From the IMG/VR virus record IMGVR_UViG_3300033067_000691, positions 1 through 52,517 of that record: DNA of 52,517 nt; one strand, written 5' to 3'. Position 1 is the first letter of the stretch; each line of letters starts with the position of its first letter. Shown piece by piece: positions 1 through 52,517 of this stretch. This DNA comes from a virus (Duplodnaviria; Caudoviricetes). The position numbers and the translations under genes were made by a program. Under the pieces are notes generated by a model. That model was not told the origin of the DNA and did not search any database. It worked only from the letters and a program-made list of their open reading frames with translations.

Positions 1-22
1 AGTTCAATCATTGTGCCGTGGC

Positions 23-81
23 CCCTAACACGTCATTCCAGCGGACCGGCCTTCGGCCGCCCGCTGAATTCGGCGTTATAC
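23..81 (+). mobile_element. attC: integron attC site (59-base element)
   Basis: R'' CCCTAAC (23-29), inner arms TTCCAGCGGACCGGCC-TTC-GGCCGCCCGCTGAA, R' GTTATAC (75-81); 59 bp imperfect hairpin. Confidence 0.85.
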
Positions 82-140
82 GGCTTCATGCGAACATTGA
101 CGTTGGACAGCTTGGCGTTGATTTCTTTGAACTGGAACAT
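33..140 (-). pseudogene. truncated phage gene whose C-terminus is supplied by the attC (MFQFKEINAKLSNVNVRMKPYNAEFSGRPKAGPLE)
   Basis: AAGGAG RBS and ATG at 140; frame crosses the attC GTT crossover and stops inside attC. Confidence 0.5.
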
Positions 141-4670: not shown

Positions 4671-4671
4671 A

Positions 4672-6653: not shown

Positions 6654-6660
6654 GACGTCA

Positions 6661-7087: not shown

Positions 7088-7129
7088 GGTACAGGCGAAA
7101 CAAATCGAAGGGCGGTCTTGCGGCCCTGA

Positions 7130-7516: not shown

Positions 7517-7550
7517 GACGAATCCTACCTACGGCCCACCACGGCGGGAC

Positions 7551-7590
7551 ACCAAAATAAATTTGCAATCCAAAAAGAATTTGGTATCAT
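7551..7590 (+). promoter_or_regulatory. pR promoter with two 17-bp operators (7551-7567, 7569-7585)
   Basis: TTGCAA (7563-68) and extended -10 TGgTATCAT; operators ACCAAAATAAATTTGCA and TCCAAAAAGAATTTGGT. Confidence 0.8.
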
Positions 7591-7596
7591 GTGGGC

Positions 7597-7794
7597 ATGA
7601 CTGCATTCGACAAACTCGTAAAGCACTTTGGATCACAGGCCGAAATCGCCGAGCACTACAACGTTTCCGGTGAAACCGTTCGTCTGTGGAAGCACAACGG
7701 GCTGCCGGCAAATCGGGCGCTGGACTTTGAGCGAGACACGAAGGGCGCGGTAACGATTCGGGAAGTGCTGGAATCGAGCAGGGGAGCTGCTTAA
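7597..7794 (+). CDS. cro: Cro/YdaS-like repressor
   Basis: FGSQAEIAEHYNVSGETVRLW...LPANRA HTH. Confidence 0.85.
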   Translation: MTAFDKLVKHFGSQAEIAEHYNVSGETVRLWKHNGLPANRALDFERDTKGAVTIREVLESSRGAA

Positions 7795-8349
7795 ATGCCG
7801 CCAACAAAACGCCGACCATGCCAGACCTGCGGAAAGCCCAACATGCGGCACGTTCCGGATTGCTGGCATTGCGAAAGGAGCGCGGCGGACAGCAGCAAAG
7901 CCCGTAACTGCGCGATTTGTGATGGCGCTATCCCGAGGGGGCGCAGCCATTCTCAGTATTGCGGCCTTCAGTGTGCAACAGCTGTTTCCGAGGCCAGGGC
8001 AGGCGTTGGCAACAGGATTGCTCAACTCGTTAAAAGCGGAAGTTTTCTGCCAGCGAAAACCCTGCTTTGTGCTGATTGCGGAGGGCCGGCGAAGGAATAC
8101 GAGCACAGGGAATATCTGAAACCGCTCGACGTTGTACCGGTGTGTCGTTCCTGCAATCTTAGGAGGGGCCCGGCAGTCGATGTAAGACCGTTTGTTGCCA
8201 AGCACTTTGGCATTTCGATCTCGGAGATCCCGGTCTTTATTGCCCGTCGACGCGAAGAAGCCAATGAGCGGAGATACAAACTCCTTCATCCGCGCGGGAA
8301 CCTTACAGCAAAAGTCGGCGCTGGCGACACGGCGAAGGAAGCTGCCTGA
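7795..8349 (+). CDS. zinc-finger / HNH-like protein
   Basis: Multiple CxxC; CADCG...EHREYLKPLDVVPVCRSCN. Confidence 0.65.
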   Translation: MPPTKRRPCQTCGKPNMRHVPDCWHCERSAADSSKARNCAICDGAIPRGRSHSQYCGLQCATAVSEARAGVGNRIAQLVKSGSFLPAKTLLCADCGGPAKEYEHREYLKPLDVVPVCRSCNLRRGPAVDVRPFVAKHFGISISEIPVFIARRREEANERRYKLLHPRGNLTAKVGAGDTAKEAA

Positions 8350-8773
8350 AATGAGTCCCAAGCTTTGGGACAAGGAAAGGTCAATGGACGCCGCAGCGCG
8401 GCATCTTGGGATTACGTTTTCGAAGCCCGCGCTCTCACTCACGCCGGCGGCTGATCGAAAAACAGAACTCGATACGGAAATTGCGCGCCTTCGAGCTCGA
8501 ATAGCAGAGCAGCGAGCGGTGACATCCCGGCACCTAGGCTGGCAAGCAGACAGGACTCTGACAGAAGTTCTATTTCTGGGTACTTGCCTGCTACGTCGCG
8601 TACAGCCTGCCGCAGAGTCGGCCAGGTTGATCGGCTTGACCTGTCTTCGCTGGTGGCTTCGATGATGATCAGTACTGAGTTCATGGCCCATCCCTTTCTG
8701 AACGCTGGTTGTGTGGAAACTCCATCGTATCAGGATGGGGTGGGCCTCCATTCCATGACGAAAGGAAAGTGAA

Positions 8774-8971
8774 ATGACCGACAAACTCACTCCCCGGCAA
8801 AACGAGATCATCAGCGAGACGCTGGCGCGCATCGCCGAGGCCGACCAAAGAAGTGACGGGATGCCGGAACGCTTGAAGACGATCCGGCGATCCCTGGTAG
8901 CGGAACTCGAAGCCGTTACCGCCGAAACAGAGATTCCATCCTCTTTTGTCAGCGGGAGCATTGCTGGATGA
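8774..8971 (+). CDS. small hypothetical protein
   Basis: AAGGA upstream; ATGA coupling to next gene. Confidence 0.55.
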   Translation: MTDKLTPRQNEIISETLARIAEADQRSDGMPERLKTIRRSLVAELEAVTAETEIPSSFVSGSIAG

Positions 8972-39800: not shown

Positions 39801-42800
39801 TACGAAGCCGCGATCGAGGCAGGAATTCAAGACCAAGCCGATGCCATCCTCGACCGAATCGCCGATTTCTACCAAGGCGAAACGTCTGCCGACAGGGATG
39901 TTTTGCTGTATCGTGAACAGACAAACGCATTGCAGGAGGCCATCGATGCCCATCAAGAACGCGAAGGACGCGACACACAAGGCGAAGGTGCTGGCGACAA
40001 TCAACCGCAGGCAACGCGAGGCGAAGGCCGCCCAGTCCTCGAGCTCGCCGGCCAATCCGCCGAAGAAATCCGCGCCGACGAAGAGCGCGTAAAGTCCGCT
40101 GAGGCGCAACGCCTCAAGGAAGAACAGGCCGCCGAGAACAAGCGGCAGGCCGACGCCGAACGCGGCGCATTCAATCTGACCGGGAGCGACCGCCCCGCCG
40201 ATGTTCTGGCGGCGCAGGGGCAGCAGGACATTTTCAGCGCCCCCGTCGATGCGGCGGCACACGAAGCCTCCACCAGCCCGCACAACGACAAGCCGGAGCC
40301 GACGCCGGCGCAGATCGAGGCAGGTAACTACTCGAAAGGCCATGCAACCGTGGCCGGGCTCGACATCAGCATCGAGAACCCCGAAGGCTCGACGCGCTCG
40401 GGCACCGACGCCAACGGCAAGGCGTGGTCGGTCACCATGAAAAGCCATTACGGCTACATCAGGGGAACAGTCAGCAACGACAAGGATCACGTCGACGTCT
40501 TCATCAAACCCGGCACGCCGACCGACTATTCTGGTCCGATCTTCGTCATTGACCAGGTGAAAGCCAACGGCCGCTACGACGAATTCAAGGTGATGATCGG
40601 ATGGAAGTCCGAAGCCGAGGCTCGCGCCGGCTACCTCGCCAACTATGAGAAGGGATGGCGGGGCCTGGGAGCGATCACCAAGGTTTCCGTTGCCGACTTC
40701 AAGACGTGGTTGACCGAGGGCGACACCACGAAGGCGTTTGCCGGTGGAATGAAAGTCGGCGCTGGCGCGACGGCGAAAAAGCCAAGGAAGCCAAAAGCCG
40801 CCGACCCGATGATCGCAATCCGCGAGTTCTACACCCCCGGCAACATCATCCACGTCGACTACTGGAACCAGCAGGACAAGGTGCTGGCCTTCGAGGAAAA
40901 GGAGCCCGGCAACTGGTCCGTGACGGTGCAGCAAGTCAAGAAGCAGGGCGACGAGTGGGTGCCGGCCGGTGAAGTGCGAGAGCATCGGACGACGCCGGGC
41001 AAGGATCGGATCATTGATCGCGTTACCGATCCGGCCGCCTCCGATCCGGACAAGGTGGCGGCCGAGAAAGCCGATGCCGATTTCGATGAAGCCATGGGGG
41101 AACTGGGCGACATCATCGGCAAGAACTTCCGCGCGACATTCACGCCGGAGCAGGAACAAAAGTTGATCCCGGTCCTGACCAAGCTGTTCGATGCCGCCTT
41201 CCGCAAGGGCTACTACAAGTTCAAGGAAGCCGCGCGGTTCGTGCTCGGTGCCATTCAATCGAAGTTCGGCGCCGACGTTGCCGACCAGATCACGATTGAC
41301 CATTTGCAGGGCGCCTATATCGGCATGGCAGGACGCTACAAGGATCAGGGCGCCGACAAGCCGGCTGTGGTTGCGGCCGTAGAGAGCAAGGACGAAATAT
41401 CGGCATGGTCTACAATGGAAACAGGAGGTATCGACAATGGGCCTGAGCAGCGTAGCGGCGCCGATCTGGAACGAGATAGCGAAGACGCAGACCCTGAAGA
41501 CGGAATGGGCGAGGAAAGCATTCGCCCTGGACGATCAGGCGATGTCGGATCTCGAGAATCGGGAGTATCAGGAACTGAAGCCCAAGGTCGGGCAGGCAGT
41601 GGCAGCAGCATTTTCGGACCTGAAGCCCCTGCTGCTGGAGAACCAGGCGATCAGTCGATATATACAGGCGCAGGGCGACCCGTCATTGAGGCAGGCGCTG
41701 CCGGAAGTGGTGTCGATAGCGGAAGCGATAGCGATAGCCTCGATGGATCGCCCATTGAGCCCACTTCAACAGACCTCTTTGCAGAACTTGCTGAAAGCCG
41801 AGTATCGCTAGACGAGGCCAAGGCCAAGCAACAGGCGGCTGACCGGCTGGAGCACAAGCCGGGCATCGCAAATATCCGTGAGACGCTGCCGATCCTCACC
41901 GAAGGCCAGCAGCAGGACGTCCACATTGCAGAAACCCGGTTTGCCAAGCCCGACGGCTACGGCATGCTGTTCACCAACGGCACCGGTACCGGCAAGACAT
42001 TCACCGGCCTTGGCATCATCAAGCGCATGGCGGTTTCTGGCAAGCGCAACGTCATCATCGCCGTGCCGAACGACAAGATTGCCGACGACTGGCGCAAGTC
42101 TGGGAAGCTGCTCGGACTCGACATTTCCCTGCTGGAGAACACCAAGGACGCCGGTCGCGGGATCGTCATCACCACCTACGCCAACTTCGGACAGAACCCG
42201 GAACTAGCGCGTCGCGAGTGGGATCTGGTTGTCGCCGATGAGGCGCACAAGCTCGCCATGAATGCGAGCGGCGAGGCAACGCTGGCGCTCGATGCGCTCC
42301 AGGCGCTGACGCTGCACCCTGATGGCGCCTACACCCGGGCAAGGATGCTGCATGCCGACCTGTACGCGCGCCTCGATGAGCTTGAAGCGCTGGCCAAGTC
42401 GCAGCGCATGTCTGACGACGAGCGCAACTGGCACGCCGAGAGCGGAACTCAGACCAAGATTGATTCGCTGCGCCGCGAGATCGATGCCAAGGTGGAGGCC
42501 ATCAAGGAGGACATCGCGGCTCGCCAGGGCGAAGCCAGGCCGCGCGCCCTGTTCCTGTCGGCGACGCCGTTTGCCTATGAGAAGACTGTCGATTGGGCGA
42601 ATGGCTACCTATTCGACTACAACGAGGGACGCGGCGACGAGCGCAACGAATTCCGGGGCTACAACGAGGGCAGCAATCGCGACCAGTTCTTCATGCAGCA
42701 CTTCGGCTACCGGATGCGTTACGGCAAGCTGACCGAGCCGGACTCCAAGGTCGACCGTGGCCTGATGCAGCGCCAGTTCAATGGCTGGCTGAAGAAGCGC

Positions 42801-45800
42801 GGCGCCGTGGCGGGCCGAATGCTGGACGTCAAGGCGGACTATGATCGCCGTTTCATCCTGGTCGAATCAGCCATCGGAGCGCGCATCGATCAGGCGCTGG
42901 AGTGGTTCGAGACGCAACGCAAGGCGCAGAACAGGGGCACCGGGGAAGCCGGAGAGCGTATTGCCGCCATCATGGCCAAGGCCGACCCGCGCGCCGTGGC
43001 GCTGGGCAAACTGCGTGACAAGATCGCGGAGAAATTCGATTACCTGTCGCGGCGCTACCTGCTCGAAGCCATCAAGGCGCAGGAGGTCGTGCCGCACGTT
43101 CGCGAGCATCTGGCGCTGGGCCGCAAGGTTGTCGTCTTTCACGACTACAAGAAGGGCGGCGGATTCAACCCGTTCCGGATCTCCCCGATTTCCGGCACCG
43201 CCGAATCCAAGGAAGCGCAGGCGGAAAACGACGCCTACAACCGCGTGGTCGAGGAATTCACCACGGAATTCTCCGACCTGATCGAATCGGACCTGTGGCG
43301 TGCGTCTTCACCGATCACGACATTCCAGCAGGAATTCCCGGGCGTGCTGCTGTTCAATGGCAACGTGCCGAAAGCGCAGCGTCGCGCCGCCGTCGAGAAG
43401 TTCCAGGACGACGCCAGCGGACCGCAAGTGATCCTCGTACAGTCGGATGCCGGAAAGGAAGGCATCAGCCTGCATGACACGACCGGCGTGCATCAGCGCG
43501 TGCTATTCAACCTTGGCCAGCCCACGGCGCCGACGACGGCCATTCAGCAGGAGGGCCGCATCTACCGCACCGGCCAGGTCACGGATGCCATCTTCCGCTA
43601 CCTGAACACCGGCACCGACTGGGAGAAGTGGGCCTTTGCGACGACCATCGCCCAGCGCGCCAGCGCGGCCGAGAATCTGGGCATGGGTGAGCAGGCTCGG
43701 GCGCTGAAGGATGCGTTCATTGCCGGCTTCGAGGAATCCGACGACTACCGCGCCGGCATGGACGGCGAGGGCAAGGGCGGCAAGGAGCGCGACCGCGCGG
43801 CGAACGAGGCAATTACAGAATACGACCGCGCCCGCGCCTTCTATTTCGGCACCCAGAAGAAGACCGCCAAGACCAAGGCGCAGGAAGGTGTCGACTACTT
43901 CGCGACGCCTGAGCCGGTCGGCTTCAAGATGATGGAGTGGGCCGACATCCGGCCGGGAGAGGCCGTGCTGGAACCCAGCGCCGGCCACGGCGCCATCGCG
44001 CGCTGGATGCCGGATACGGCCGTGCGAACCGCCATCGAACCGAGCATGACGCTGCGCTCACGCCTGGCCATGGTCTTCGACGGCACGATGCTCGATCACG
44101 ATTTCGAGGATCTGAACATCGTCAACAAGTACGACGCCATCGTGATGAACCCGCCTTTCGGATCCGGAGGCAAGACGGCGATCGACCATCTGGCCAAGGC
44201 GGCGACGCACCTGCGCGATGGCGGGCGCATTGTCGCCTTGATCCCGCGCGGACCTGCGGCTGACAAGCGCTTCGACAAGTGGTTCTATGAGGAAAGTGAG
44301 AAGGCCAGCAAGCCGATCGTTCCAGCTTCAGCGCTTAATGTTGGAGAGGAAATTCATCGAGGGGACACGGTAAGGATATTCGGGTTCGGGCGGAACAGTG
44401 ACATGGTTGTTGATCGCGCCGACAAGATCAACGGGGTCTATTACATTCGGCCAGAAGGAGCGGACAAAGCCAGCAGCATCAACGTGACTGCCGTTGAAGC
44501 TGTTATCCCCGGCAAGCGCACCGAGTCCTACAAGCCGGCGGAAGGCCTGAATCTGGTTGCCGACGTGGTGATGCCGAACGTGACCTTCGAGCGCGCTGGT
44601 ACGCAGGTTGCTACGCGCATCGTGGTGATCGAAAAGTCGCCCGACGCGCCGCAACTTTTCAGCCCAAGCTTTGTGGATGTTGAGGACATCAACGAGCTAT
44701 TCGATCGCATGGAAGGAACAACGGTCGAGGGCCGCGCGAAGCCTGAAGTTGTGGAGGTCGAGGCCGCGCCGTCGAAGACCGGGAAAGCCGCCAAGCCTGT
44801 CGTTGATCAGGAAGCTGCAAAGGCGGCGGCCGAGACCATGGGCCTGAATATCATCGAGCACATCACGCAGAAGGGCAAGACGCTGCGCGGCGTGGTTCGC
44901 ACCGATCTGACGCGCGACCAGGCGAAGGAGATCGACGAATTCACGTTCAAGAAGGACGGCGGCTGGTTCATTCGCGAAAAGCATCTTGTCGCGAAGCCTG
45001 GCGAAAGCGGCGGCGCACTCGAATCCCGCTCCGATTCCATGACGCGAGAGCAGGCTGAAATGATCATCGCTGCCTCACGCGGCGGGATCCACACCGGCGA
45101 GACGGTCGGATCGATTCGCTCAGGACTTCATCAGTCGATCGGAAAGGCCGTGATCGACCGGCTGGAACAGAAGGGCTTGCTGCGCATCCTCAAGACCGCC
45201 GACGATCTGCCGTATGGCCTGACGCTTTCCGAGACAGGTACCGCCCTGTATGACGGCAATGTGGCCTACCTGATCGCCGACCGGATGCGACCTGAGACGG
45301 CCGTCCGCGAGATCCTGCACGAGATTGGCGAACACCACGGGCTTGAGGGGATGCTGGGGAAGGATGGCTATGCCGCGCTAACGAGGCGCGTTCGCGCCAT
45401 GGAGAAGTTCGGCAATCAGCGCGTGCGCGACGCCTTCGCCACGGTTCGCCAGCTCTATCCGGAATACGCAGACAACTCTGCCGAGTTCATGCATGAAGTG
45501 CTGGCCAACATCGGCCAGGATGCCGACATTCAGGCAAAGCCATGGTGGCAGGAAATGCTCGCCGCGGTCAAGCGCTGGATCGTGCAGATCGGCTACGGCG
45601 GTCTGATCAAGGCCGGCGATATTCAGGACATGGTGCTGCATAGCCTGAAGGTGGCGGCTGGAGAGGATCACTTTGCCGGCGCCGGCAATATGATCCCGGC
45701 GATGGCATCGAAGTCCGGATCTCCCGCGATGGAAGCACGCCAGACGCGCCAGCAGGCGCTACCGAACACAGGCACGCCGCCGGCACCAGCGCCGGTCCGT

Positions 45801-48527
45801 CAGACCCCGATGGGTTTGCAGGGCGGCGCCACGGGCAACAACGCCTCATGGAACGGTTATCAGGCGTCCAAGCTGGATGACGTGATCCGGACCCTTCAGG
45901 ACAAGCACATCGACAGCAAGCGCACGGTGCAGGCAATCAAGGCTGCCGGGCGCCAAGTCGCCGACAAGTGGGACGTCTACCTGCAGGAATCGCTGTTCCA
46001 TGGCCGCGCGGCAAAGCGGACGCTGGAGTTCGTTGAAACCGAGCTGACGCCGCTGGCGCAGGATTTGGCCATGCGCGGTCTCACACTTGATGAGCTCGAC
46101 CAGTACCTGCACGCGCGCCATGCGGAAGAAGCAAATGCCCTGATCGCCCAGCGCAATCCAGCGATTCCCGATGGCGGCTCCGGCATGACCAACCAGCAGG
46201 CGCACGACTACTTCACCAGCCTGGACCCGTCGAAGCGCAAGCGGCTGGAAGCCTCGGCCGCCCGGGTGGATGCCATCATTGCCAACACGCGCAAGCTCTA
46301 CGTCAGCTATGGGCTGGAATCGCAGGAAACCATCGACGGCTGGGCCGACACCTTCCAGCATTACGTGCCGCTGATGCGCGAGGACAAGGACGGCGGCATG
46401 GGCATCGGTCAAGGCTTTTCGGTCAAGGGCAAAGAGTCCAAGAGCCGCACCGGTTCGACCCGCGCCGTGGTGGATATTCTGGCCAACATCGCCATGCAGC
46501 GCGAACGCGCCGTCGTGCGCGGCGAGAAGAACCGGGTTTCCGTGTCCCTGCTGGGCCTGGCCAAGCTGAACCCGAACCCCGGCTTCTGGATGACGGACCG
46601 CATTCCGATGATCACCGGCCTGAACCCGGCAACCGGACTGGTTGAGACCTATCCGGATCCCGGCTACAAGAGCCGTGAGAATGTCGTCGTGGCCAAGGTT
46701 CCCGACGGCAAGGGTGGTATTCAGGAGCGCGCTGTCGTCTTCAACGAGGAAAACGAACAGGCCATGAACATGGCGCGCGCGCTGAAGAATCTGGACGCCG
46801 CACAGCTTGAGGGCTTGATGGGTGCGGCGTCGCGCGTGACGCGCTACTTTGCGTCGATCAATACCCAGTACAACCCGGTCTTCGGCGTGACCAACCTGGT
46901 GCGAGACGTGCAGGACGCCATGCTGAACCTGTCGTCGACGCCGATCGCCGGCCACAAGGCCGACGTGCTGAAGCACACGCTCGGGGCCCTGCGCGGGATC
47001 TACATCGATACCCGTCAAATGCGCAAGGGCCAGCCGGCGACGTCGGCCTACGCTCAACTGTGGGAGGAATTCCAGCATGAGGGCGGGCAGACTGGTTACC
47101 GCGACATGTTCCGCACCAGCGCCGACCGTGCGCGCGCCATCGAGAGGGCCATCAACCCGACGCAATGGATGGACAGCCCCCTGGGTCAGGTCTTCACTGC
47201 CGGCGGCGCGCTGCGGGTTCCCGTTGCCGTCGCGCAGCAAAAGGCGACCTGGCTATTCGACTGGTTGAGCGACTACAACGAGTCGATGGAGAACGCCGTG
47301 CGCCTGGCCGCCTACAAGGTGGGGCTGGAGCAGGGCATGAGTAAGCAGCAGGCGGCGGCGATGGCCAAGAGCTTGACGGTGAATTTCAACCGCAAGGGGC
47401 AGATCGGCATGCAGGCCGGCGCGCTCTACGCCTTCTTCAATGCTTCCATGCAGGGCACCGGCCGCATCGCGCAGACGCTGTTCACCATCCAGGGCAACGA
47501 CATCAAGACCGTCAGGCTGTCCAAGTCCGGACAGAAGATCGTCGCCGGCGGCATCCTGCTGGGAAGCCTCCAGGCGCTGATGCTGATGGCCGCCGGCTTC
47601 GGTGATGATGAGCCCCCGGAGTTCGTGCGCGAGCGCAATACCATCATCCCGATCGGCAACAAGAAGTACGTCACGATCCCCATGCCGCTCGGCTTTGCCG
47701 TCCTGCCCAACATCGGCCGCATCGCTACCGAGTTCGTCATGGGTGGATTCAAGAACCCAGCGAAGCACGTCACGCGCCTGCTTGGCATCGCCGCGGATGC
47801 CTTCAACCCGATTGGCGGCAACGGAACAGTGTTGCAGATGGTCACGCCGACCGCCTTGGATCCGCTGGCCGCGATTGCCGAGAACAAGGACTGGACCAAG
47901 AAGCCGATTGCCAAGGTGGCCTATGACAAGACCACGCCGGGGCACAAGCTCTGGAAGGATACGGCCAGCACGCCGGGAAAGCTGATCGCCGAGGCGATCA
48001 ACGCGATGTCAGGCGGCAACAAGTACGTTGCCGGCAGCCTGAGCCCGACGCCAGACCAGATTGATTACCTGTTTGGCCAGGTGACTGGCGGTGTTGGTCG
48101 CGAGCTGTCGAAGACCGAACAATCGATCATGGCCACGGTGCGCGGCGAGGATTTGCCTCCGCACAAGATTCCCTTGGTCGGCCGGTTCTATGGCGACGCC
48201 AATGCGCAAAGCAGCCAGGGTACGACCTTCTACAACAACATCAACCGCATCAAGGAGTACGAAAACACAATCAAAGGTCTTCGGGAAGACAAGAAGGGCG
48301 AGGAAGCCGCCAAGTTCATCGCCAAGAATCCCGAGGCGCGGCTGGTGATGCGTGCGAACTACACCGAACGCGTGGTGCAAAAGCTTCGCAAGGAAAAGCA
48401 TGATCTGGTCGAGAAGGATGCGCCGCGCGAGCGCATCAAGATGCTGGAAGACCGGATCAAGACGGAAATGCAGCGCTTCAACGATGCCGTGAAGGCGTCA
48501 AAGAAGCGAGAGAAGGAAGCGGCCTGA
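36813..48527 (+). CDS. giant polyvalent DarB-like injected protein: InPase-like, SF2 helicase, N6-adenine methyltransferase, zincin-like and LPD38-like domains
   Basis: PTPAQIEAGNYSKGH (~40300); NGTGTGKT and DEAH (~41980-42250); EPSAGHG and NPPF (~43970-44160); HEIGEHHG (~45320); NFNRKG...FFNASMQG (~47380-47460). Confidence 0.85.
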   Translation: MADISIINAAIERGYSHDEIADILAADAGFDPKAIRGNGYSSAEILGRLGYELPKVSESGDFMRGATTAAKQLPQLGYGLIGAAGAVAESALGEGGVSSAVKEFGVRKYQEAGADIQKDAKETDSLTYSWERAKQGDYGAMVDWLQYGLGYGGVQALEALASGGIGAVLGKATLKGTAEHLAAGMVAKEAARIGAAQEGKALAADVVQRMAVANVAANIGAKVGIGAQAFGMEGGEIMGGLAEQSAKRGSPLTGDEIAKGLGATLAAGSLEFVGDKIGVDLMLGKSGMFKPAAGMTGIGGRVARAGVAAAGAIPIESGTEYFQTGLEEWGQGKEANIAPWNQSPEAQRQAFDAAGLGAVGGGAMAVGGGLLTPPSARPAIPRATPEDVASAETPQAAAAAVADMGAGIAPPIAESLASTQSEIDALLADPLTESAALVQPSSIIPPSVGGNPALGAADTVPSGPQQLPGHVLGSQPVLPENSGNNTSGGVNLLGDLANGKPGIEKGADVVDGGALREMMARMFSISHDRQILDAVVKLIPVDVVNYLAGFKLTPEMLFHNPSMLEGGLPVPGSNDQVPVPSNVTRALMNATAGVATEHQTAAGNPGRLSVNNAATIGAGNMNAVALPGAVVLPEAGQAAKVSGSNEPGRLDVNGGTAGGTIDDRHSVTPNSDVVLGAGGVDASSAPSIMPQAKVGAGSTPIVTQQSDNAVPPGLAQMRARVAERQASADAPVVKESLMVPPTAQPASTNSLPIDSEISTPPAGQPDEPAGTVQGVNRIRGGKLEITGFGRDEVADVLKTAKIVATVTAGKDGRVLVSATDRAGNATKISIKQQNAISKALLGASATPKKARKLSGNLKNDLDIIAPGLYGEVARGGDGEANDAAWGDVSLIAEKMRDEQGYMLPHDANGQDLANALRELIRQHAGGDVVLNEARQAAAMTEEETKRHRSDVLRMADEYGIETKRGIIPRRLEEIEAEVKAAIEQEIGVAGKGMAAAYEAAIEAGIQDQADAILDRIADFYQGETSADRDVLLYREQTNALQEAIDAHQEREGRDTQGEGAGDNQPQATRGEGRPVLELAGQSAEEIRADEERVKSAEAQRLKEEQAAENKRQADAERGAFNLTGSDRPADVLAAQGQQDIFSAPVDAAAHEASTSPHNDKPEPTPAQIEAGNYSKGHATVAGLDISIENPEGSTRSGTDANGKAWSVTMKSHYGYIRGTVSNDKDHVDVFIKPGTPTDYSGPIFVIDQVKANGRYDEFKVMIGWKSEAEARAGYLANYEKGWRGLGAITKVSVADFKTWLTEGDTTKAFAGGMKVGAGATAKKPRKPKAADPMIAIREFYTPGNIIHVDYWNQQDKVLAFEEKEPGNWSVTVQQVKKQGDEWVPAGEVREHRTTPGKDRIIDRVTDPAASDPDKVAAEKADADFDEAMGELGDIIGKNFRATFTPEQEQKLIPVLTKLFDAAFRKGYYKFKEAARFVLGAIQSKFGADVADQITIDHLQGAYIGMAGRYKDQGADKPAVVAAVESKDEISAWSTMETGGIDNGPEQRSGADLERDSEDADPEDGMGEESIRPGRSGDVGSRESGVSGTEAQGRAGSGSSIFGPEAPAAGEPGDQSIYTGAGRPVIEAGAAGSGVDSGSDSDSLDGSPIEPTSTDLFAELAESRVSLDEAKAKQQAADRLEHKPGIANIRETLPILTEGQQQDVHIAETRFAKPDGYGMLFTNGTGTGKTFTGLGIIKRMAVSGKRNVIIAVPNDKIADDWRKSGKLLGLDISLLENTKDAGRGIVITTYANFGQNPELARREWDLVVADEAHKLAMNASGEATLALDALQALTLHPDGAYTRARMLHADLYARLDELEALAKSQRMSDDERNWHAESGTQTKIDSLRREIDAKVEAIKEDIAARQGEARPRALFLSATPFAYEKTVDWANGYLFDYNEGRGDERNEFRGYNEGSNRDQFFMQHFGYRMRYGKLTEPDSKVDRGLMQRQFNGWLKKRGAVAGRMLDVKADYDRRFILVESAIGARIDQALEWFETQRKAQNRGTGEAGERIAAIMAKADPRAVALGKLRDKIAEKFDYLSRRYLLEAIKAQEVVPHVREHLALGRKVVVFHDYKKGGGFNPFRISPISGTAESKEAQAENDAYNRVVEEFTTEFSDLIESDLWRASSPITTFQQEFPGVLLFNGNVPKAQRRAAVEKFQDDASGPQVILVQSDAGKEGISLHDTTGVHQRVLFNLGQPTAPTTAIQQEGRIYRTGQVTDAIFRYLNTGTDWEKWAFATTIAQRASAAENLGMGEQARALKDAFIAGFEESDDYRAGMDGEGKGGKERDRAANEAITEYDRARAFYFGTQKKTAKTKAQEGVDYFATPEPVGFKMMEWADIRPGEAVLEPSAGHGAIARWMPDTAVRTAIEPSMTLRSRLAMVFDGTMLDHDFEDLNIVNKYDAIVMNPPFGSGGKTAIDHLAKAATHLRDGGRIVALIPRGPAADKRFDKWFYEESEKASKPIVPASALNVGEEIHRGDTVRIFGFGRNSDMVVDRADKINGVYYIRPEGADKASSINVTAVEAVIPGKRTESYKPAEGLNLVADVVMPNVTFERAGTQVATRIVVIEKSPDAPQLFSPSFVDVEDINELFDRMEGTTVEGRAKPEVVEVEAAPSKTGKAAKPVVDQEAAKAAAETMGLNIIEHITQKGKTLRGVVRTDLTRDQAKEIDEFTFKKDGGWFIREKHLVAKPGESGGALESRSDSMTREQAEMIIAASRGGIHTGETVGSIRSGLHQSIGKAVIDRLEQKGLLRILKTADDLPYGLTLSETGTALYDGNVAYLIADRMRPETAVREILHEIGEHHGLEGMLGKDGYAALTRRVRAMEKFGNQRVRDAFATVRQLYPEYADNSAEFMHEVLANIGQDADIQAKPWWQEMLAAVKRWIVQIGYGGLIKAGDIQDMVLHSLKVAAGEDHFAGAGNMIPAMASKSGSPAMEARQTRQQALPNTGTPPAPAPVRQTPMGLQGGATGNNASWNGYQASKLDDVIRTLQDKHIDSKRTVQAIKAAGRQVADKWDVYLQESLFHGRAAKRTLEFVETELTPLAQDLAMRGLTLDELDQYLHARHAEEANALIAQRNPAIPDGGSGMTNQQAHDYFTSLDPSKRKRLEASAARVDAIIANTRKLYVSYGLESQETIDGWADTFQHYVPLMREDKDGGMGIGQGFSVKGKESKSRTGSTRAVVDILANIAMQRERAVVRGEKNRVSVSLLGLAKLNPNPGFWMTDRIPMITGLNPATGLVETYPDPGYKSRENVVVAKVPDGKGGIQERAVVFNEENEQAMNMARALKNLDAAQLEGLMGAASRVTRYFASINTQYNPVFGVTNLVRDVQDAMLNLSSTPIAGHKADVLKHTLGALRGIYIDTRQMRKGQPATSAYAQLWEEFQHEGGQTGYRDMFRTSADRARAIERAINPTQWMDSPLGQVFTAGGALRVPVAVAQQKATWLFDWLSDYNESMENAVRLAAYKVGLEQGMSKQQAAAMAKSLTVNFNRKGQIGMQAGALYAFFNASMQGTGRIAQTLFTIQGNDIKTVRLSKSGQKIVAGGILLGSLQALMLMAAGFGDDEPPEFVRERNTIIPIGNKKYVTIPMPLGFAVLPNIGRIATEFVMGGFKNPAKHVTRLLGIAADAFNPIGGNGTVLQMVTPTALDPLAAIAENKDWTKKPIAKVAYDKTTPGHKLWKDTASTPGKLIAEAINAMSGGNKYVAGSLSPTPDQIDYLFGQVTGGVGRELSKTEQSIMATVRGEDLPPHKIPLVGRFYGDANAQSSQGTTFYNNINRIKEYENTIKGLREDKKGEEAAKFIAKNPEARLVMRANYTERVVQKLRKEKHDLVEKDAPRERIKMLEDRIKTEMQRFNDAVKASKKREKEAA
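38211..38807 (-). CDS. HNH endonuclease with two zinc fingers and C-terminal HTH, nested antisense in the giant ORF
   Basis: CTAC...FCSLPC, CANC...FCSYAC, HRWVMEQHLGRKL...VHHINGDKLDNRIENL; GGGAG RBS. Confidence 0.85.
   Translation of the reverse strand: MPVVNCTACGTPVYIKPSRLVATGNFCSLPCFRKHYSAGQRNGVHVACANCGSVVYRKTSRIPGSGLVFCSYACRGIHQRTGYIGRNGYLIIATGDGKPTLKHRWVMEQHLGRKLESSEIVHHINGDKLDNRIENLAIMTNAEHTGHHFPQRATINDIRPFFDAGLTVRQIAKQVHSATRVVARVLRQHGLRTKHMPR
38838..38882 (-). promoter_or_regulatory. extended -10 promoter and leader hairpin for the nested HNH
   Basis: Minus strand TGgCATAAT (-10 at 38874-38879); hairpin 38838-38869. Confidence 0.5.
39946..40092 (+). CDS. possible nested out-of-frame 48-aa basic peptide
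   Basis: AGGAGG 6 nt before the ATG, within a linker of the giant ORF. Confidence 0.35.
   Translation: MPIKNAKDATHKAKVLATINRRQREAKAAQSSSSPANPPKKSAPTKSA
41437..41811 (+). CDS. nested out-of-frame 124-aa helical protein
   Basis: TACAAT (41411-16) and AGGAGGT (41423-29); giant frame here is a disordered G/S/D/E linker. Confidence 0.7.
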   Translation: MGLSSVAAPIWNEIAKTQTLKTEWARKAFALDDQAMSDLENREYQELKPKVGQAVAAAFSDLKPLLLENQAISRYIQAQGDPSLRQALPEVVSIAEAIAIASMDRPLSPLQQTSLQNLLKAEYR

Positions 48528-49296: not shown

Positions 49297-49895
49297 ATCC
49301 GCCTGAATTCAACGCACCACACCCACGGGTTCGCGTCCCATGAGTCGCGGCCGTTGATGGATTCCCACAGGCGAGAGTACGCATAGACATTGCTTGCGCC
49401 GCGCACGTCGTCGGGGAACATTGGCAAGCAGCCCTCGGCCTCCGCATCCGCCTCGCTGATGTCCTGCAGCCGCTCGACGCGGACCGATTCAATCTTCAAT
49501 AGAATGCGAGAGACGCGGCGCGGCATGTGAATTGATGGACGGGACTTGAGCATCAGCCCATGCCCAGCCGTCGCGCCAACTATCTGGTTGTCGGCAAAAT
49601 ACTTGATGGCCACAAAGCCAGGCAGATCGCGCGGGGCGACGTTATCAAATGCCTCGCATGTTCCCCACTTCTCGCGGACATAGAGCCGGTCGCCTGGTTG
49701 GCCGTAGGGGCAATACCCTGGCATCTTGTTCAGAAGGTCGCCAAGGTCCGCGCCTATCACCGATGATCCGGGTTTCGGATACCACGCGCGGCCTTCAGGC
49801 TGTGGCTTCACCGCGCGCCGCGTCTGCGTCTTGGTGCCGGCGAGGATGGCGCGGACCATCGGAGCGGAGAACAGGATTGGGCGCTCAGTCATCAT
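49293..49895 (-). CDS. ASCH/PUA-like phage protein
   Basis: ERPILFSAPMVRAILAGTKTQTRR, PSIHMPR, VERLQDISE, NPWVW. Confidence 0.8.
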   Translation of the reverse strand: MMTERPILFSAPMVRAILAGTKTQTRRAVKPQPEGRAWYPKPGSSVIGADLGDLLNKMPGYCPYGQPGDRLYVREKWGTCEAFDNVAPRDLPGFVAIKYFADNQIVGATAGHGLMLKSRPSIHMPRRVSRILLKIESVRVERLQDISEADAEAEGCLPMFPDDVRGASNVYAYSRLWESINGRDSWDANPWVWCVEFRRI

Positions 49896-50061
49896 CGCCC
49901 CCAAGCACGCGCGCCTCAATGCCGGCCAGCACCTTCTCCTGCTTCTCCGTCAGCGTTGCGCGCTGCTTGATGCTGGGCAGGAATTCAAACTTCTCCCACG
50001 ACGACAGATCGCTACCGACTGCCTCGGCGAGGATCTTGGCGACTCGTTGAGCGGGCGTCAT
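49885..50061 (-). CDS. small hypothetical protein
   Basis: LSSWEKFEFLPSI...LTEKQ; ATGA coupling. Confidence 0.55.
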   Translation of the reverse strand: MTPAQRVAKILAEAVGSDLSSWEKFEFLPSIKQRATLTEKQEKVLAGIEARVLGGDDD

Positions 50062-50300
50062 GGCTTCATCCTTTCCATTTCATCGGCCGCCATCAGCAGG
50101 CAGTGTGCGTAGCTGCGAAGCAGGTCGGGTTCCTTGATGTCGTCGGCGCCGGCAAAGCTTGCCGTGGGGAATGACGGCATCCGGATGTTGCAAAGCGGCC
50201 CGCTGGCGGCTTTGGTTACGACGACCTCAATGCGCGCATCGTTGGCGCACTCGTAGTCTGTGAATACCACTTCGCGGCGGATTTCGTCGGCGATGCTCAT
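50058..50300 (-). CDS. hypothetical protein
   Basis: GGAGG RBS; coupled at both ends. Confidence 0.6.
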   Translation of the reverse strand: MSIADEIRREVVFTDYECANDARIEVVVTKAASGPLCNIRMPSFPTASFAGADDIKEPDLLRSYAHCLLMAADEMERMKP

Positions 50301-51313
50301 GGCTGCCTCCGCAAAAATGCAGGGATTGGGTAGGTGATGCGCTCAGGTTTGCGCGCCTCCGGGTATCCGTCGTGCAGCGTTCCAGCCAGGTCGCGCCCTG
50401 CCGCCTTCTTTCCGACTCGAACGACCGTCAAGACGTCGGCGCACTCGTCCTGAAGGGCGTCATCGCCTTCGTTCCAGAACGTGCCGTCGCTGCGAATGTG
50501 GCGCACTTCACCGGCTGCTGTCCCGAAAGCCTGCGCGCCAGCGTTCACCCATTCGCCCCACTGCTTGAACAAGAACGGTACGCCGGCCGACTCGCATTGA
50601 TCGTGCAGGTCGTATGCCCATGACCCATGCATCGGTCGCGCCTCCGGTCCGCTCTCCCCGCCGACGATGACCCAATCGAGCGGACTATGAAGGTCTTGCC
50701 AATCCGGGTCTTTTCCTGGTCTGAACTTCGGGCGAAGATAGCTGCTCAGGTCGACCAGCCCAAGCAGCGGTTCCATGCTGACGAACCGCACCGCCGCCGG
50801 TGTCGCCAGCAGCTTCGGGATGTCTCGGTCGGCCTCGGCCTGATTGACGACCGTGGCGCCAAGCCAGACGTTGTGCAGCAATTCTCGACCTGGATCGATC
50901 GCGCGCATTTCGCGAGTCGCTTCGACCATCATTCGCTCGGCGTTTCCGATCCGCTTCGTCAACAGTAACCAGTCGAGATTCGGGGTCTGAGCGATCAGGC
51001 TGAATAGATCGGCACGCCAATGCTCCGGAACCTCGTTGTCGAACACGTCGGCGAGGCTCGCGCAGAAAACTCGGCGGCGCCGGCCGTGGGCGGCAAAGAA
51101 CTCGTCATGCTGGCGATCCCATTGCAGCGGCTTCTTCCAGTTGCCCGGCGATGTGCGGCTGCGCGGATTTCCAGTACCCCATTTGACGCGGTGCTTGCGG
51201 TGGTCAAAGTCGGCCTCCGCGTAGCAGTTATCGCAGCCAGGACCCACCTTGGTGCACCCAATCCATGGATTAAAACTAGAATCGCACCAGGCAATTTCAG
51301 TGTTTTCAGCCAT
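50297..51313 (-). CDS. DUF5131 / phage Gp37-Gp68 family (radical-SAM-like)
   Basis: FNPWIGCTKVGPGCDNCYAE, LLTKR, FVSMEPLL, WVIVGGESG, FLFKQWG. Confidence 0.9.
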   Translation of the reverse strand: MAENTEIAWCDSSFNPWIGCTKVGPGCDNCYAEADFDHRKHRVKWGTGNPRSRTSPGNWKKPLQWDRQHDEFFAAHGRRRRVFCASLADVFDNEVPEHWRADLFSLIAQTPNLDWLLLTKRIGNAERMMVEATREMRAIDPGRELLHNVWLGATVVNQAEADRDIPKLLATPAAVRFVSMEPLLGLVDLSSYLRPKFRPGKDPDWQDLHSPLDWVIVGGESGPEARPMHGSWAYDLHDQCESAGVPFLFKQWGEWVNAGAQAFGTAAGEVRHIRSDGTFWNEGDDALQDECADVLTVVRVGKKAAGRDLAGTLHDGYPEARKPERITYPIPAFLRRQP

Positions 51314-52043
51314 GTTGCCTCCCTTGCGCCACAGCCAGCGCCACCGCCACCGGCCGAACCCAGATCGGCGACGCCGAGAGCATGAAGGTTTCTCCAGACC
51401 AAGCCAGCAGCAGCGTGGTCCCCATGACGCCGGCGATTGCCGCTGCGGCGTCTGGTGGTACCGCGTTGCCGATGCGTTCGCGCCAGTCGCTGTCGCTGAG
51501 TCCATCGAGTTCAAGGTATTCCTCGGGCTCAACCAGAGATTGCAGGGCAGCGAGCTCGAGCGTGGTGAATGGGCGATGCCAGGTGCCGTCGAGCAACCGC
51601 ACCACCAGCCCCGCCGTGCCGCGTGTGGCGGCCAGCAGACGTTGCGCTTCGCCCTGGGTGAGCACGACCGGGAGCCGTTTGGAGGGCTTGGCACGGGTGA
51701 TGCTGTCGAGCCAGCCGAGTTCGACGCCGAGTACTTGCCTGTAAAGGAATAGGATGGCGTGCATGGCCTGGTTCTGCGTGCCCGCGGCGACGTCGCGCAC
51801 CGTAGCCAGGTGCGACAAGAATGCTTCGACCTCGGCCGCGCCCATGTCGCGCGGGTGGCGCAGACCGTGGAAGTGAATGTAAAACTTGATCCAGTGCAGG
51901 TAGGTATTCTCGGTGGCGCGGGCATAGTGGAGCACACGAATGCGCTCGCGCACCTGGTCAAGCAGCTTGGGCGGCTTTGCCGGGGTTGGCGTGTCGCGTT
52001 TGACTGGCGCGAGTGTCGCGTCACGTTCGATGACTTCAGTCAT
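51306..52043 (-). pseudogene. intI: chimera: integron integrase N-terminal half fused to a C5-cytosine methyltransferase C-terminus
   Basis: KLLDQVRERIRVLHY...TQNQA...RAKPSKRLPVVLT, then DGTWHRPFTTLELAALQ...RERIGNAVPP; no catalytic R-H-R-H-Y residues. Confidence 0.85.
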
Positions 52044-52071
52044 GGTGCGGTTCTCCTGTGATCGGTGCCGA

Positions 52072-52131
52072 GTTATGCGACATGACAGGCGCGTTCACGC
52101 GACATCGGGTGTCGTTGAATTTAAGTTGGGG
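52072..52131 (+). mobile_element. attI: integron attI site
   Basis: Direct repeats GTTATGCGACAT / GTTCACGCGACAT, L-like GTTGAAT (52114-20) and core GTTGGGG (52125-31), just upstream of intI. Confidence 0.7.
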
Positions 52132-52391
52132 GTCTTGTTTGCCGCATTCCATGCTTCGCGGCACTTGTTGTAACACTCGGCTTCTGGCATAAAATAGTCC
52201 AGTACCACCGGGGTTGTGTCACCGCCGCAATATCCGCACTCAACAACGGCAACGTTATTCCGGTGGCCTTTGTATAGCATCTTGATTATGTAGCGTTCGC
52301 TTCCGCAGTGTTTGCATGGCGCAACCCCCAACCCGTCGTCCAACGCGGACGTGCCGCTCGATGCTTCGTTGTTGCTCGGTGCGTTCTCCAT
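52095..52391 (-). CDS. Lar-like restriction-alleviation zinc-ribbon protein (cassette 1)
   Basis: PCKHCG...VECGYCG...REAWN; AT-rich core; ends PNLNSTTPDVA inside attI. Confidence 0.65.
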   Translation of the reverse strand: MENAPSNNEASSGTSALDDGLGVAPCKHCGSERYIIKMLYKGHRNNVAVVECGYCGGDTTPVVLDYFMPEAECYNKCREAWNAANKTPNLNSTTPDVA

Positions 52392-52448
52392 GTTCAATCT
52401 CCCTTAGTGGCGTCAGTGGGCGGCACGCCGCTTACCTTGGCGTTGGGG
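52326..52448 (+). mobile_element. attC: integron attC site (123 bp)
   Basis: R'' CCCCAAC, arm GCGGACGTGCCGCTC pairs with GGGCGGCACGCCGC, R' GTTGGGG. Confidence 0.82.
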
Positions 52449-52517
52449 GTCTCGGGCCGTGGGTCGCCGTCGCCATCAAGAACGTCAGGCTCTCCATTCA
52501 TCAGCGCATCGGCGTGC
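52394..52517 (-). CDS. cassette 2 ORF, partial (...HADALMNGEPDVLDGDGDPRPETPNAKVSGVPPTDATKGD)
   Basis: Reads across the attC core as PN and stops in the attC loop; continues in frame from the ATG at position 11 if the genome is circular. Confidence 0.5.
   Translation of the reverse strand, partial: HADALMNGEPDVLDGDGDPRPETPNAKVSGVPPTDATKGD

What the first reader, a model, noticed from the sequence alone, without database searches (positions are those of the whole stretch)
51306..52517. Phage-borne integron with inverted cassettes embedded in the early operon
Seen: an IntI-type N-terminal half, an attI-like site with direct repeats, attC sites at 52326-52448 and 23-81, and a cassette start (GTTGGGGGT) complementary to its own R'' (ACCCCCAAC). 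Established: integron cassette genes normally point away from intI and are driven by Pc, and integrons are mostly described on chromosomes and plasmids. Here the cassette ORFs point towards intI, and both are co-oriented with the phage pL operon. No CTGT-N8-ACAG LexA box is visible. Inference: the phage has adopted an integron as a shuffling platform for early accessory genes, with expression tied to the phage lytic switch. I cannot confirm novelty without a literature and database search.
Basis: partly seen in the sequence, partly recalled or inferred. Interest (0 to 1): 0.92.

Follow-up and report, generated by a model that had tools for sequence, protein, structure and literature searches.

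The report
Broken integron inside a phage genome
This phage genome carries the remains of an integron, a gene-capture device normally found in bacteria, and its intact relatives sit in other phages as a separate lineage whose captured genes all face towards the integrase and often encode DNA-modifying enzymes.

Summary
ORF 51306-52043(-) starts with 150 codons of a true integron integrase, about 94% identical to full-length IntI in other viral contigs. It is fused in frame to the last ~100 codons of a phage C5 DNA methyltransferase. Upstream lies a conserved attI with its crossover at G52125|TT. The cassette genes lie on the intI-sense strand, opposite to a class 1 control and to 20 chromosomal integrons.

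Two corrections. This copy is defective: the catalytic half of IntI is missing and the contig has no tyrosine recombinase. The contig ends are not adjacent: the assembly broke inside the array.

Relatives support the wider idea. About 45 IntI sequences, including all 25 scored as inverted, form one group on the tree. Two phages that are 99.9% identical from attI onward differ by whole cassettes cut exactly at AA|C. Their cassettes encode methyltransferases, Mom and PAPS-reductase-like proteins. Phage integrons were reported in 2023; I found no report of this architecture or lineage. Expression from the early operon was not tested.

The parts
51306..52043 (-). Chimeric ORF of 245 aa: IntI N-terminal DNA-binding half fused in frame to the C-terminal ~100 aa of a phage C5 DNA methyltransferase
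   Evidence: aa 1-150 are ~94% identical to L017 IntI. aa 148-241 are 87% identical to the end of the 602-aa L043 ORF annotated as methylase in relatives, and ~84% identical to Pseudomonas phage methylases.
51591..52043 (-). intI' remnant: codons 1 to ~151 of an integron integrase, without the catalytic domain
   Evidence: TIGR02249 positions 1-136 of 315. The alignment with IntI1 and phage IntIs diverges after VVRLL.
51306..51602 (-). C-terminal remnant of a C5 cytosine methyltransferase gene; no catalytic motifs, no Pfam DNA_methylase hit
51576..51593 (.). Fusion junction: overlap of the two homologies, with about 12 nt of microhomology (CTCnACGGCACC; peptide [VI]R[LA]L[YD]GT)
   Evidence: intI homology covers gene nt 1-468, methylase homology starts at nt 451. 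Contigs of runs X19, X18 and X2 bridge it with 0 differences.
52044..52127 (.). attI: 84-nt block conserved among relatives, with the crossover between G52125 and T52126
   Evidence: Logan contigs end at 52126-52128 in 4 of 4 runs.
52077..52105 (+). Two direct repeats GCGACAT (52077-52083 and 52099-52105), 22 nt apart, inside attI
   Evidence: Read. The TGTCGC boxes recur in relatives. A role as IntI-binding sites is inferred.
52126..52442 (.). Cassette 1 (317 nt), complete. Its start TTGGGGGT is complementary to its own R'' box
   Evidence: A Logan contig of X19 starts at 52441.
52095..52391 (-). Cassette 1 gene: 98-aa zinc-ribbon protein, weakly Lar-like. It starts inside the attC loop and ends in attI (tail NLNSTTPDVA)
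   Evidence: Pfam Lar_restr_allev E 2.1e-4, 21.9 bits, below the 28.6 cut-off. 16 relatives, one carrying PF14354. The same attI-encoded tail occurs in L018.
52326..52448 (-). attC of cassette 1: long form, with the RBS and ATG of the gene in its loop
   Evidence: R2 34.0 bits, E 6.3e-6. 81% identical relative in L165 at 224-346. Depth is 10-20x that of the flanks in the metagenomes.
52443..52517 (.). Start of cassette 2, cut by the contig end. It holds the last 40 codons of a 91-aa ORF (52394-52516, -)
   Evidence: L165 ORF 1154-1429(-) is the full form. X2 loose end.
1..75 (.). End of the last cassette of the array, including its attC
   Evidence: boundary G75|TT.
23..81 (-). attC of the last cassette, 59 nt, textbook shape
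   Evidence: R1 44.4 bits and R2 52.1 bits. This is as strong as attC of aadA2 in the class 1 control (44.7 bits). Fold.
76..140 (-). Outer junction: 14 nt left from a further cassette (76-89), joined to the first 17 codons (90-140) of a backbone gene that is longer in relative L022

Best explanation
The window is a phage genome carrying a defective fragment of an integron from a phage-resident lineage.

Composition. Read on the minus strand, the fragment is: the last attC of an array, at least three cassettes (one lost in the assembly gap), attI, and the first ~150 codons of intI. Two microhomology or illegitimate joins spliced it into the leftward early gene block. At the outer end it meets codon 17 of a small backbone gene. 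At the inner end intI codon ~150 is fused in frame to the tail of the phage's C5 methyltransferase gene.

The intact form. Relatives have cassettes, then attI, then intI, all on one strand. attI and the attC sites have the usual orientation relative to intI, but each cassette gene lies on the strand that carries the attC bottom strand. IntI-directed insertion at attI therefore places a new gene just upstream of intI and co-directional with it. The array must be transcribed from upstream and read through into intI.

Shown: the parts and their orientation, cassette gain and loss at exact AA|C boundaries in relatives, and the separate IntI lineage.

Inferred: read-through expression from the early promoter; that cassette 1 (Lar-like) and cassette 2 are expressed as early accessory genes here; and that attI and the attC sites could still be recombined by an IntI supplied in trans.
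For: Parts.

Orientation control: model R1 hits the class 1 attC sites on the intI1-sense strand, while aadA2 and dfrA12 are antisense.

attC strand: 67 of 67 hits, 183 of 185 hits and 92 of 92 hits lie on the intI-sense strand.

Gene direction by homology: 5 of 10 intI-sense cassette ORFs have Pfam hits against 0 of 10 antisense ORFs. In the larger set of 99 sense ORFs, 19 family matches include N6_N4_Mtase 4, DNA_methylase 2, MT-A70, Dam and Mom. Of 85 antisense ORFs, 5 members hit, and 4 of those lie in L150, a canonical array.

ORF geometry: phage-associated loci give inverted 80, canonical 9, both 35, none 33. Twenty chromosomal loci give canonical 35, inverted 1, both 1, none 29.

Cassette turnover.

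Lineage: all 25 inverted loci fall in one 45-row group, and 15 of 16 canonical loci fall outside it.

Phage context: terminase, portal, RecT and exonuclease in the window. In L098 and L099 phage integrase and SSB, plus ParB (L098) or tail protein and terminase (L099), lie around intI.

Fusion is real: contigs from two studies bridge it with 0 differences, and the shared stretch is only ~12 nt.

Backbone synteny.
Against: No transcription data, so read-through is not shown.

The Lar assignment is below Pfam's threshold.

The 'viral' status of most IMG/VR contigs is a prediction. I checked phage genes only for the window, L098 and L099.

The geometry test leaves 68 of 157 cassettes undecided (both or none), and 9 look canonical.

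The tree is a quick search with a midpoint root and no Xer outgroup. The 45-row node has SH-aLRT 85, not starred.

The size of the gap between the contig ends is unknown.

Logan contig ends at cassette boundaries may reflect other elements that share the same attI or attC, rather than variants of this phage.
Confidence: 0.85

Rival explanations
1. The integron is still a working shuffling platform for this very phage. An IntI supplied in trans by a co-resident prophage or chromosomal integron of the same lineage exchanges cassettes at this attI.
For: attI and two attC sites are intact. In run X1 a contig shares 51689-52127 exactly but differs on both sides, so the same attI-intI 5' sequence exists with other flanks in that metagenome. 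Contigs end at 52126-52128 in 4 of 4 runs and one starts at 52441. One bacterial genome (G003) holds three intI genes.
Against: There is no recombinase in the contig. Contig ends in unitig-like assemblies mark any branch, including unrelated elements that share the site. No variant of this phage with another cassette at attI was seen.
Confidence: 0.3
2. Assembly chimera or host contamination: the integron pieces at the two contig ends come from a bacterial chromosome and were wrongly joined to a phage contig.
For: Both contig ends lie inside the array. IMG/VR classes the record as linear and 92% complete.
Against: Both joins are internal to the contig, ~90 nt and ~930 nt from the ends. The intI'::methylase join is bridged with 0 differences by Logan contigs in X19 (49500-52127), X18 (51514-52128) and X2 (51468-51845, another study). 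The parents share only ~12 nt there, too short for an assembler word. The backbone order small gene .. methylase - DUF5131 - orf49293 is kept in relatives. A simple prophage insertion into intI would leave the intI 3' half at the other flank, and it is absent.
Confidence: 0.04
3. Chance or other hairpins: the two 'attC' sites are terminators or repeat hairpins, and the integrase piece belongs to a Xer or phage integrase.
For: Both sites overlap minus-strand ORFs. The 138-nt fold around attC1 is not unusually stable (z -1.2 to -1.8). Rfam has no hit.
Against: The model scores equal those of class 1 attC sites and nothing else in 105 kb of searched strand comes close. The 9-mer chain rule holds. 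The attI block ends sharply at its AAC boundary. TIGR02249 scores 147.8 bits against 30.7 for XerA.
Confidence: 0.02

Closest known systems
Canonical integrons (class 1 mobile integrons; sedentary chromosomal integrons)
   Same: IntI of the TIGR02249 family: relatives score 465-482 bits and are 54-57% identical to IntI1, with the aligned catalytic motifs and the IntI-specific segment. attI lies at the 5' end of intI with a G|TT crossover. attC sites have R''/L''/L'/R' boxes, bulged bases on the same arm, and the same orientation relative to intI. Cassettes are bounded at G|TT and chained by complementary R boxes.
   Different: Cassette genes lie on the intI-sense strand, so they point towards intI and cannot be driven by an outward Pc in attI or intI. 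Many end with TGA 5-6 nt before the boundary, and some start inside the attC loop. No perfect LexA box lies within -200..+30 of intI in 0 of 43 loci of the phage group, against 3 of 31 others including IntI1. The context is temperate-phage early regions. Cargo is DNA methyltransferases, Mom and PAPS-reductase-like proteins, not the APH and hexapeptide-transferase type seen in the canonical array L150.
Phage-associated integrons and CALINs of Qi et al. 2023 (PMC9892861; I read the abstract and all of section 3, not the supplements)
   Same: Integron parts inside phage genomes. Methyltransferase cassettes were noted, and the idea that phages gain counter-defence genes this way was raised.
   Different: They screened 10,705 NCBI phage genomes and found 3 complete integrons, 1 In0 and 17 CALINs. 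The complete ones are pieces of Vibrio or Shewanella chromosomal integrons or class 1 integrons on P1. In the text I read there is no IMG/VR screen, no phage-specific IntI lineage and no uniformly inverted cassette genes. In 50,697 deposited phage records, the 9 with an IntI-like match are all under 60% identical to L017 IntI.
'Inverted integron-integrase' integrons (Treponema type)
   Same: intI and the cassette genes are co-directional.
   Different: There intI is transcribed towards attI and lies upstream of the array, that is, intI is flipped relative to the attC sites (passages of PMC3607928 and PMC4889954). Here intI keeps the canonical orientation relative to attI and attC and lies downstream of the array; the gene inside each cassette is what is flipped. 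Virus Rctr41k (KX853513) may be of the Treponema type, but the hits are weak (14-18 bits).
CALIN (cluster of attC sites lacking an integron integrase; an IntegronFinder class, name recalled and also used in PMC9892861)
   Same: The window has two or more attC sites close together and no intact intI.
   Different: It keeps attI and a 150-codon intI remnant, so it is better described as a truncated integron.

Membership tests
Integron (complete) | Intact integron integrase with catalytic residues and the IntI-specific extra segment | tested here: not met
   The window matches only TIGR02249 positions 1-136 of 315 and has no PF00589 hit. The feature is met in relatives L017, L018 and L043.
Integron (complete) | attI next to the 5' end of intI, with the cassette junction at G|TT | tested here: met
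   The conserved block starts at AAC|TT in the window and in 19 of 20 relatives, and the outside letters read GTTRRRY.
Integron (complete) | attC sites with paired R and L boxes, an unpaired spacer and bulged bases on one arm | tested here: met
   Covariance models R1 and R2. Covariation in 7 of 10 predicted pairs of the seed alignment. The same model finds the class 1 attC sites.
Integron (complete) | Cassette genes point away from intI and are expressed from Pc | tested here: not met
   The genes are on the intI-sense strand. Pc itself was not tested.
Integron (complete) | Cassettes are gained and lost as units at the crossover point | tested here: met
   Met in relatives L016 and L017. Not shown for the window's own phage. 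No biochemical recombination assay is possible with these tools.
CALIN | Two or more attC sites close together without an intact intI in the replicon | tested here: met
   The contig is 92% complete, so an intI in the missing part cannot be excluded.
Inverted integron-integrase group (Treponema type) | [quoted passage not shown] | tested here: not met
   attC orientation relative to intI equals that of class 1. attI is at the intI 5' end.
C5 cytosine DNA methyltransferase (PF00145) | Full catalytic domain | tested here: not met
   No Pfam DNA_methylase hit. Only the last ~100 aa are homologous.
Lar restriction-alleviation family (PF14354) | Match above Pfam's gathering score | tested here: inconclusive
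   21.9 bits against a cut-off of 28.6. No NCBIfam or PHROGs hit. One distant relative carries PF14354.

The most novel reading that the evidence does not exclude
A separate lineage of integrons lives in temperate phages of Betaproteobacteria-type hosts (Rhodocyclaceae, Thiobacillus and Sulfuricella by record titles). It works as a counter-defence gene exchange. Its own pool of 'bottom-strand' cassettes carries DNA methyltransferases, Mom, Lar-like and nucleotide-modifying enzymes. These are inserted at attI just upstream of intI, and the whole array plus intI is transcribed as the tail of the phage early operon. Cassette shuffling would then be switched on by phage development rather than by LexA. 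This would be the phage mirror image of bacterial integrons that store anti-phage defence cassettes. The window would be a relic of it whose sites can still be used in trans.
Probability: 0.5. Interest if true: 0.9.

Novelty: new variant of a known kind. Interest (0 to 1): 0.8.

Why it matters
Integrons are known as bacterial gene-capture platforms. Recent work shows that their cassettes store anti-phage defences (preprints 10.1101/2024.07.02.601686, passages read; 10.1101/2024.07.02.601719, abstract only).

A monophyletic integrase group resident in phages, with a rule-breaking cassette orientation and cargo rich in DNA-modification genes, would mean that phages run the same device for the opposite side of the arms race.

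It also bears on two open questions. One is how cassette orientation and expression are coupled. The other is where cassettes come from: here the ribosome-binding site and start codon can sit inside the attC loop, and one attC-encoded leader is joined to different gene bodies.

It offers a compact, testable system: an 84-nt attI, 59-nt attC sites and a 343-aa IntI. It also flags that attC- or IntI-based surveys that assume outward-facing genes may mis-annotate such arrays.

Tried and rejected
1. A ViennaRNA scan for AAC..GTT hairpins up to 150 nt was too noisy because it preferred long spans. A stricter version served only to pick seeds for the covariance model.

2. Codon-position G+C was tried as a way to call the coding strand. 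The first score was symmetric by design and called everything '+'. The corrected score mis-called aadA2 and dfrA12 in the class 1 control. Both are rejected and their counts are not used.

3. Longest stop-free frames per strand are uninformative in this G+C-rich DNA.

4. Rfam: 0 hits at gathering threshold in the window. I found no attC family by this route.

5. Exact search for the window's last 28 nt and first 29 nt in viral contigs gave 0 hits each. The same 28-mer in metagenome contigs gave L165.

6. Promoter and terminator consensus scan of 51200-52517: one promoter-like site on the + strand at 52168-52195 and one terminator-like site. Neither is interpretable.

7. Pfam on ten ORFs at the head of the leftward block found no repressor or Cro-like gene, so the 'pL' label could not be checked.

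8. X1 had no listed contig across 51586-51688. This is a part without cover and is not used as evidence.

10. Supplements are closed. Supplementary Tables S1, S2 and S4 and File S1 of PMC9892861 list the 17 CALINs and their contexts. They might hold orientation details that I could not see.

11. Literature searches cover only the held library, so 'not found in print' means not found there.

12. Counting caveats.
- The locus sets overlap. L096-L098 equal L015-L017. L099=L018, L103=L019, L107=L043=L004, L116=L028, L128=L030, L139=L024, L121=L036 and L134=L008 by identical IntI or spacing.
- L015 was dropped from the sum.
- For the tree, IntI matches shorter than 290 aa or with stops were dropped, and 8 identical rows were merged.
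- 37 of 78 tree rows have no orientation label.
- The tally of 115 of 301 genomes with an IntI match includes the unpublished genomes G042, G299 and G144. None of the 20 regions I fetched comes from them, and no other claim rests on them.
Full report
WHAT THE WINDOW IS. The window is a whole IMG/VR virus record of 52,517 bp. It is classed as linear and estimated 92% complete. It encodes a large terminase subunit, a portal protein, a tail-fibre-like protein, RecT and an exonuclease. It also encodes a 3,904-aa polyvalent protein. Minus-strand genes run from about 9,700 down to 1, and again from 52,517 down to about 48,650. The finding lies in this leftward block.

THE INTEGRASE PIECE. ORF 51306-52043(-) has 245 aa. 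Residues 27-110 match Pfam Phage_int_SAM_4. Residues 27-162 match positions 1-136 of the 315-position NCBIfam model for integron integrases, at 147.8 bits against 30.7 for XerA.

A tblastn search against deposited phages splits the protein in two. Residues 21-164 are 50% identical to IntI1. Residues 146-240 are about 84% identical to the C-termini of Pseudomonas phage C5 methyltransferases.

Full-length IntI genes of 341-347 aa exist in viral contigs L017, L018 and L043. They score 465-482 bits on the integron-integrase model, whose cut-off is 265. They align with IntI1 through the catalytic motifs and the IntI-specific segment. The residue names for these motifs are recalled; the alignment is the result.

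The window's protein is 141/150 identical to L017 IntI up to residue 150 and unrelated after about residue 154. The methyltransferase homology starts at residue 148. At the DNA level the two homologies overlap by 18 nt, with about 12 nt shared. The gene is therefore an in-frame fusion made at a microhomology. It lacks the catalytic half of both parents. The contig has no PF00589 match at all.

attI. I aligned the DNA upstream of intI in the window and 20 relatives. Nineteen relatives and the window share a block that starts exactly at AAC|TTAAATTC on the intI-sense strand; L009 lacks it. The first 18 columns inside the block are 0.63-1.00 identical. Columns -36 to -9 outside it are 0.26-0.58 identical. 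The last letters outside the block read GTTGTGC, GTTAGCC, GTTATGC and GTTGGGG on the other strand, which is GTTRRRY. In the window the crossover falls between G52125 and T52126. Two GCGACAT repeats lie 22 nt apart inside the block.

attC SITES. Upstream of intI the relatives carry arrays of hairpin sites of 51-130 nt. Successive sites are chained: each ends GTTxxxx, and the next cassette ends with the complementary xxxxAA|C. From 33 such sites, none from the window, I built model R1. From 67 hits of R1 I built model R2.

R2 was run over both strands of the window with filters off. It finds 81..23(-) at 52.1 bits and 52448..52326(-) at 34.0 bits. The next hit scores 10.6 bits.

The 9-mer GTTGGGGGT occurs three times in the window, all of them here. 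It marks the start of cassette 1, that cassette's own R'' box, and the start of cassette 2.

ORIENTATION. As a control I used an annotated class 1 integron. There R1 hits the attC sites of aadA2 (44.7 bits), of the next cassette (35.5 bits) and of dfrA12 (19.3 bits). All three are on the intI1-sense strand, while the resistance genes are antisense to intI1. In the phage loci the hits are also on the intI-sense strand: 67 of 67 and 183 of 185. The platform geometry is therefore canonical.

The genes are not. Of ten intI-sense cassette ORFs, five have Pfam hits; of ten antisense ORFs, none do. In a second, larger set I took the longest ORF of each strand for 113 cassettes.
- The 99 sense ORFs give 19 family matches, ten of them DNA-modification families.
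- The 85 antisense ORFs give five members with hits. Four of these lie in one locus, L150, whose cassettes look like an ordinary chromosomal array with APH and a hexapeptide transferase.

An ORF-geometry test called both controls correctly (L095 2 of 2 canonical; L150 8 canonical, 3 both, 0 inverted).
- Other phage-associated loci: 80 inverted, 9 canonical, 35 both, 33 none.
- Twenty chromosomal integrons from 19 genomes of the same class, chosen only for having 9 kb of upstream sequence: 35 canonical, 1 inverted, 1 both, 29 none.

Many phage cassettes end with TGA 5-6 nt before the AAC boundary.

In the window, cassette 1 encodes a 98-aa zinc-ribbon protein on the minus strand. It has 16 database relatives and a sub-threshold Lar match. 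It starts in the loop of its attC and ends inside attI.

CASSETTE TURNOVER. L016 and L017 are 99.9% identical over 4,084 nt from the attI junction onward. Cut at AA|C, L016 has ten cassettes and L017 has eight.
- Five are shared over their full length: 299/299, 397/397, 450/450, 916 nt at 99.8% and 425 nt at 99.5%.
- One pair shares its body at 90% but has different attC sites.
- Four are unique to L016 and two to L017.

A SEPARATE LINEAGE. A scan of IMG/VR with L017 IntI returned 70 loci at 46-100% identity. I built a tree of 78 distinct IntI sequences from viral loci, prophage-like genome loci, 20 chromosomal loci, L150 and IntI1. All 25 loci scored as inverted fall in one group of 45 rows (SH-aLRT 85; the inner 44-row node 98). 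Fifteen of 16 canonical loci fall outside it. The exception, L126, rests on a single cassette. The tree is a quick search with a midpoint root.

One genome (G003) holds three intI genes; one falls inside this group and two outside it. No locus of the group has a perfect LexA box within -200..+30 of intI (0 of 43). Among the others, 3 of 31 do, including IntI1.

In L099 the order is Sak4-like gene, SSB, cassette, attI, intI and phage integrase, with tail and terminase genes beyond on the opposite strand. In L098, intI is followed by a ParB-like gene, SSB and an integrase.

HOW THE PIECE SITS IN THIS PHAGE. Backbone relatives (L021, L022, L026 and others) keep the order AAA-ATPase, small genes, methyltransferase, DUF5131, orf49293. 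In the window the small gene at 140..36(-) matches L022 for only its first 17 codons. Then come 14 nt and the last attC. The integron fragment therefore replaced about 3 kb between that gene and the methyltransferase tail.

THE CONTIG ENDS. Both contig ends lie in the array, but they are not adjacent. Metagenome contig L165 carries seven attC sites, all on one strand. It matches 52440-52517 at 100% from the GTT boundary and then continues with the rest of a 91-aa ORF and its own attC. A contig of run X2 continues in the same way. At least three cassettes are therefore present, and the assembly broke inside the array.

INDEPENDENT SUPPORT FROM PUBLIC RUNS. Twenty of the 22 listed runs, from 12 studies, hold at least part of 51200-52517; four hold half its words or more. 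Logan contigs bridge the fusion junction with no differences in X19, X18 and X2; X2 is from a different study. One of these runs may be the source of the window. Contigs end at 52126-52128 in all four runs laid, and one starts at 52441. These positions are the cassette boundaries. The attC1 bin has 10-20 times the depth of its flanks. This fits many cassettes and arrays sharing these sites in the same communities. It does not prove variation within this phage.

WHAT IS KNOWN. Qi et al. 2023 (PMC9892861; abstract and all of section 3 read) found 3 complete integrons, 1 In0 and 17 CALINs in 10,705 NCBI phage genomes, and showed that IntI1 recombines five phage attC sites. The complete ones are captured pieces of Vibrio or Shewanella chromosomal integrons, or class 1 integrons on P1. 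They noted methyltransferase cassettes. They did not screen IMG/VR. In the text I read they describe neither a phage-specific IntI lineage nor inverted cassette genes.

The Treponema-type 'inverted integrase' integrons have intI flipped and upstream of the array, which is a different arrangement. Six literature searches found nothing closer. Of 50,697 deposited phage records, nine have an IntI-like match, all under 60% identical to L017 IntI.

VERDICT. The window holds a defective, mosaic fragment of a phage-type integron. Its intact relatives define a new architectural variant of the integron, with its own integrase lineage and a cargo biased to DNA modification. The mode of expression and the activity of the window's sites remain to be tested.

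Noticed in passing
window 52326-52448; L165 224-346: The long attC of cassette 1 holds an RBS, an ATG and about 22 codons in its loop. An 81% identical attC in L165 encodes a similar leader (ME.AP...SSGTS.L..GLG) joined to an unrelated protein body. Two database proteins match only the first 24-28% of the Lar-like protein at 89-96% identity. One attC-with-leader module seems to be attached to different genes.
   Followed up: partly
window 36813-48527 (+): A 3,904-aa polyvalent protein with InPase, ResIII/Helicase_C, a small methyltransferase domain and LPD38. This is a known kind of phage or plasmid giant protein.
   Followed up: partly
window 183-614 (-): A Tad2-like (Thoeris anti-defence 2) domain protein, E 2.6e-24. 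It lies just upstream of the integron fragment in the same gene block.
   Followed up: no
L150 (IMG/VR contig, intI at 8001-8945): An IMG/VR 'viral' contig that ends in an ordinary, canonically oriented integron. Its cassettes encode APH-like, hexapeptide-transferase, AAA_33 and RraB-like proteins. It may be host DNA at a prophage edge.
   Followed up: partly
L106 9610-11038; L123 11133-11206; L003 11297-11368: attC hits on the intI-sense strand downstream of intI. This suggests a second array or a CALIN after the integrase in some elements.
   Followed up: no
L129 13033-13100 (-); L163 3755-3814 (-): These are the only two of 185 attC hits that lie on the strand opposite to intI.
   Followed up: no
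G003 (C33, C23, C13): One Sulfuricella-titled genome holds three full-length intI genes. One falls in the phage-type group and two outside it on the tree.
   Followed up: partly
L225 = KX853513 Virus Rctr41k, 4595-5593 and 6556-8728: A deposited uncultured virus with an IntI-like gene annotated as xerD (47% identical to L017 IntI). Four weak attC-like hits (14-18 bits) lie downstream of it on the opposite strand, among co-directional genes that include methyltransferase-like ones. It may be a Treponema-type arrangement in a virus.
   Followed up: partly
The genome search, class of G001: 115 of 301 sampled genomes of the class have a match to the integron-integrase model at E <= 1e-60, 112 of them over the cut-off. 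The tally includes three unpublished genomes.
   Followed up: no
window 50297-51313 (-): A DUF5131 (gp37/gp68) gene whose start overlaps the stop of the chimeric ORF. It follows the methyltransferase gene directly in relative L021.
   Followed up: no
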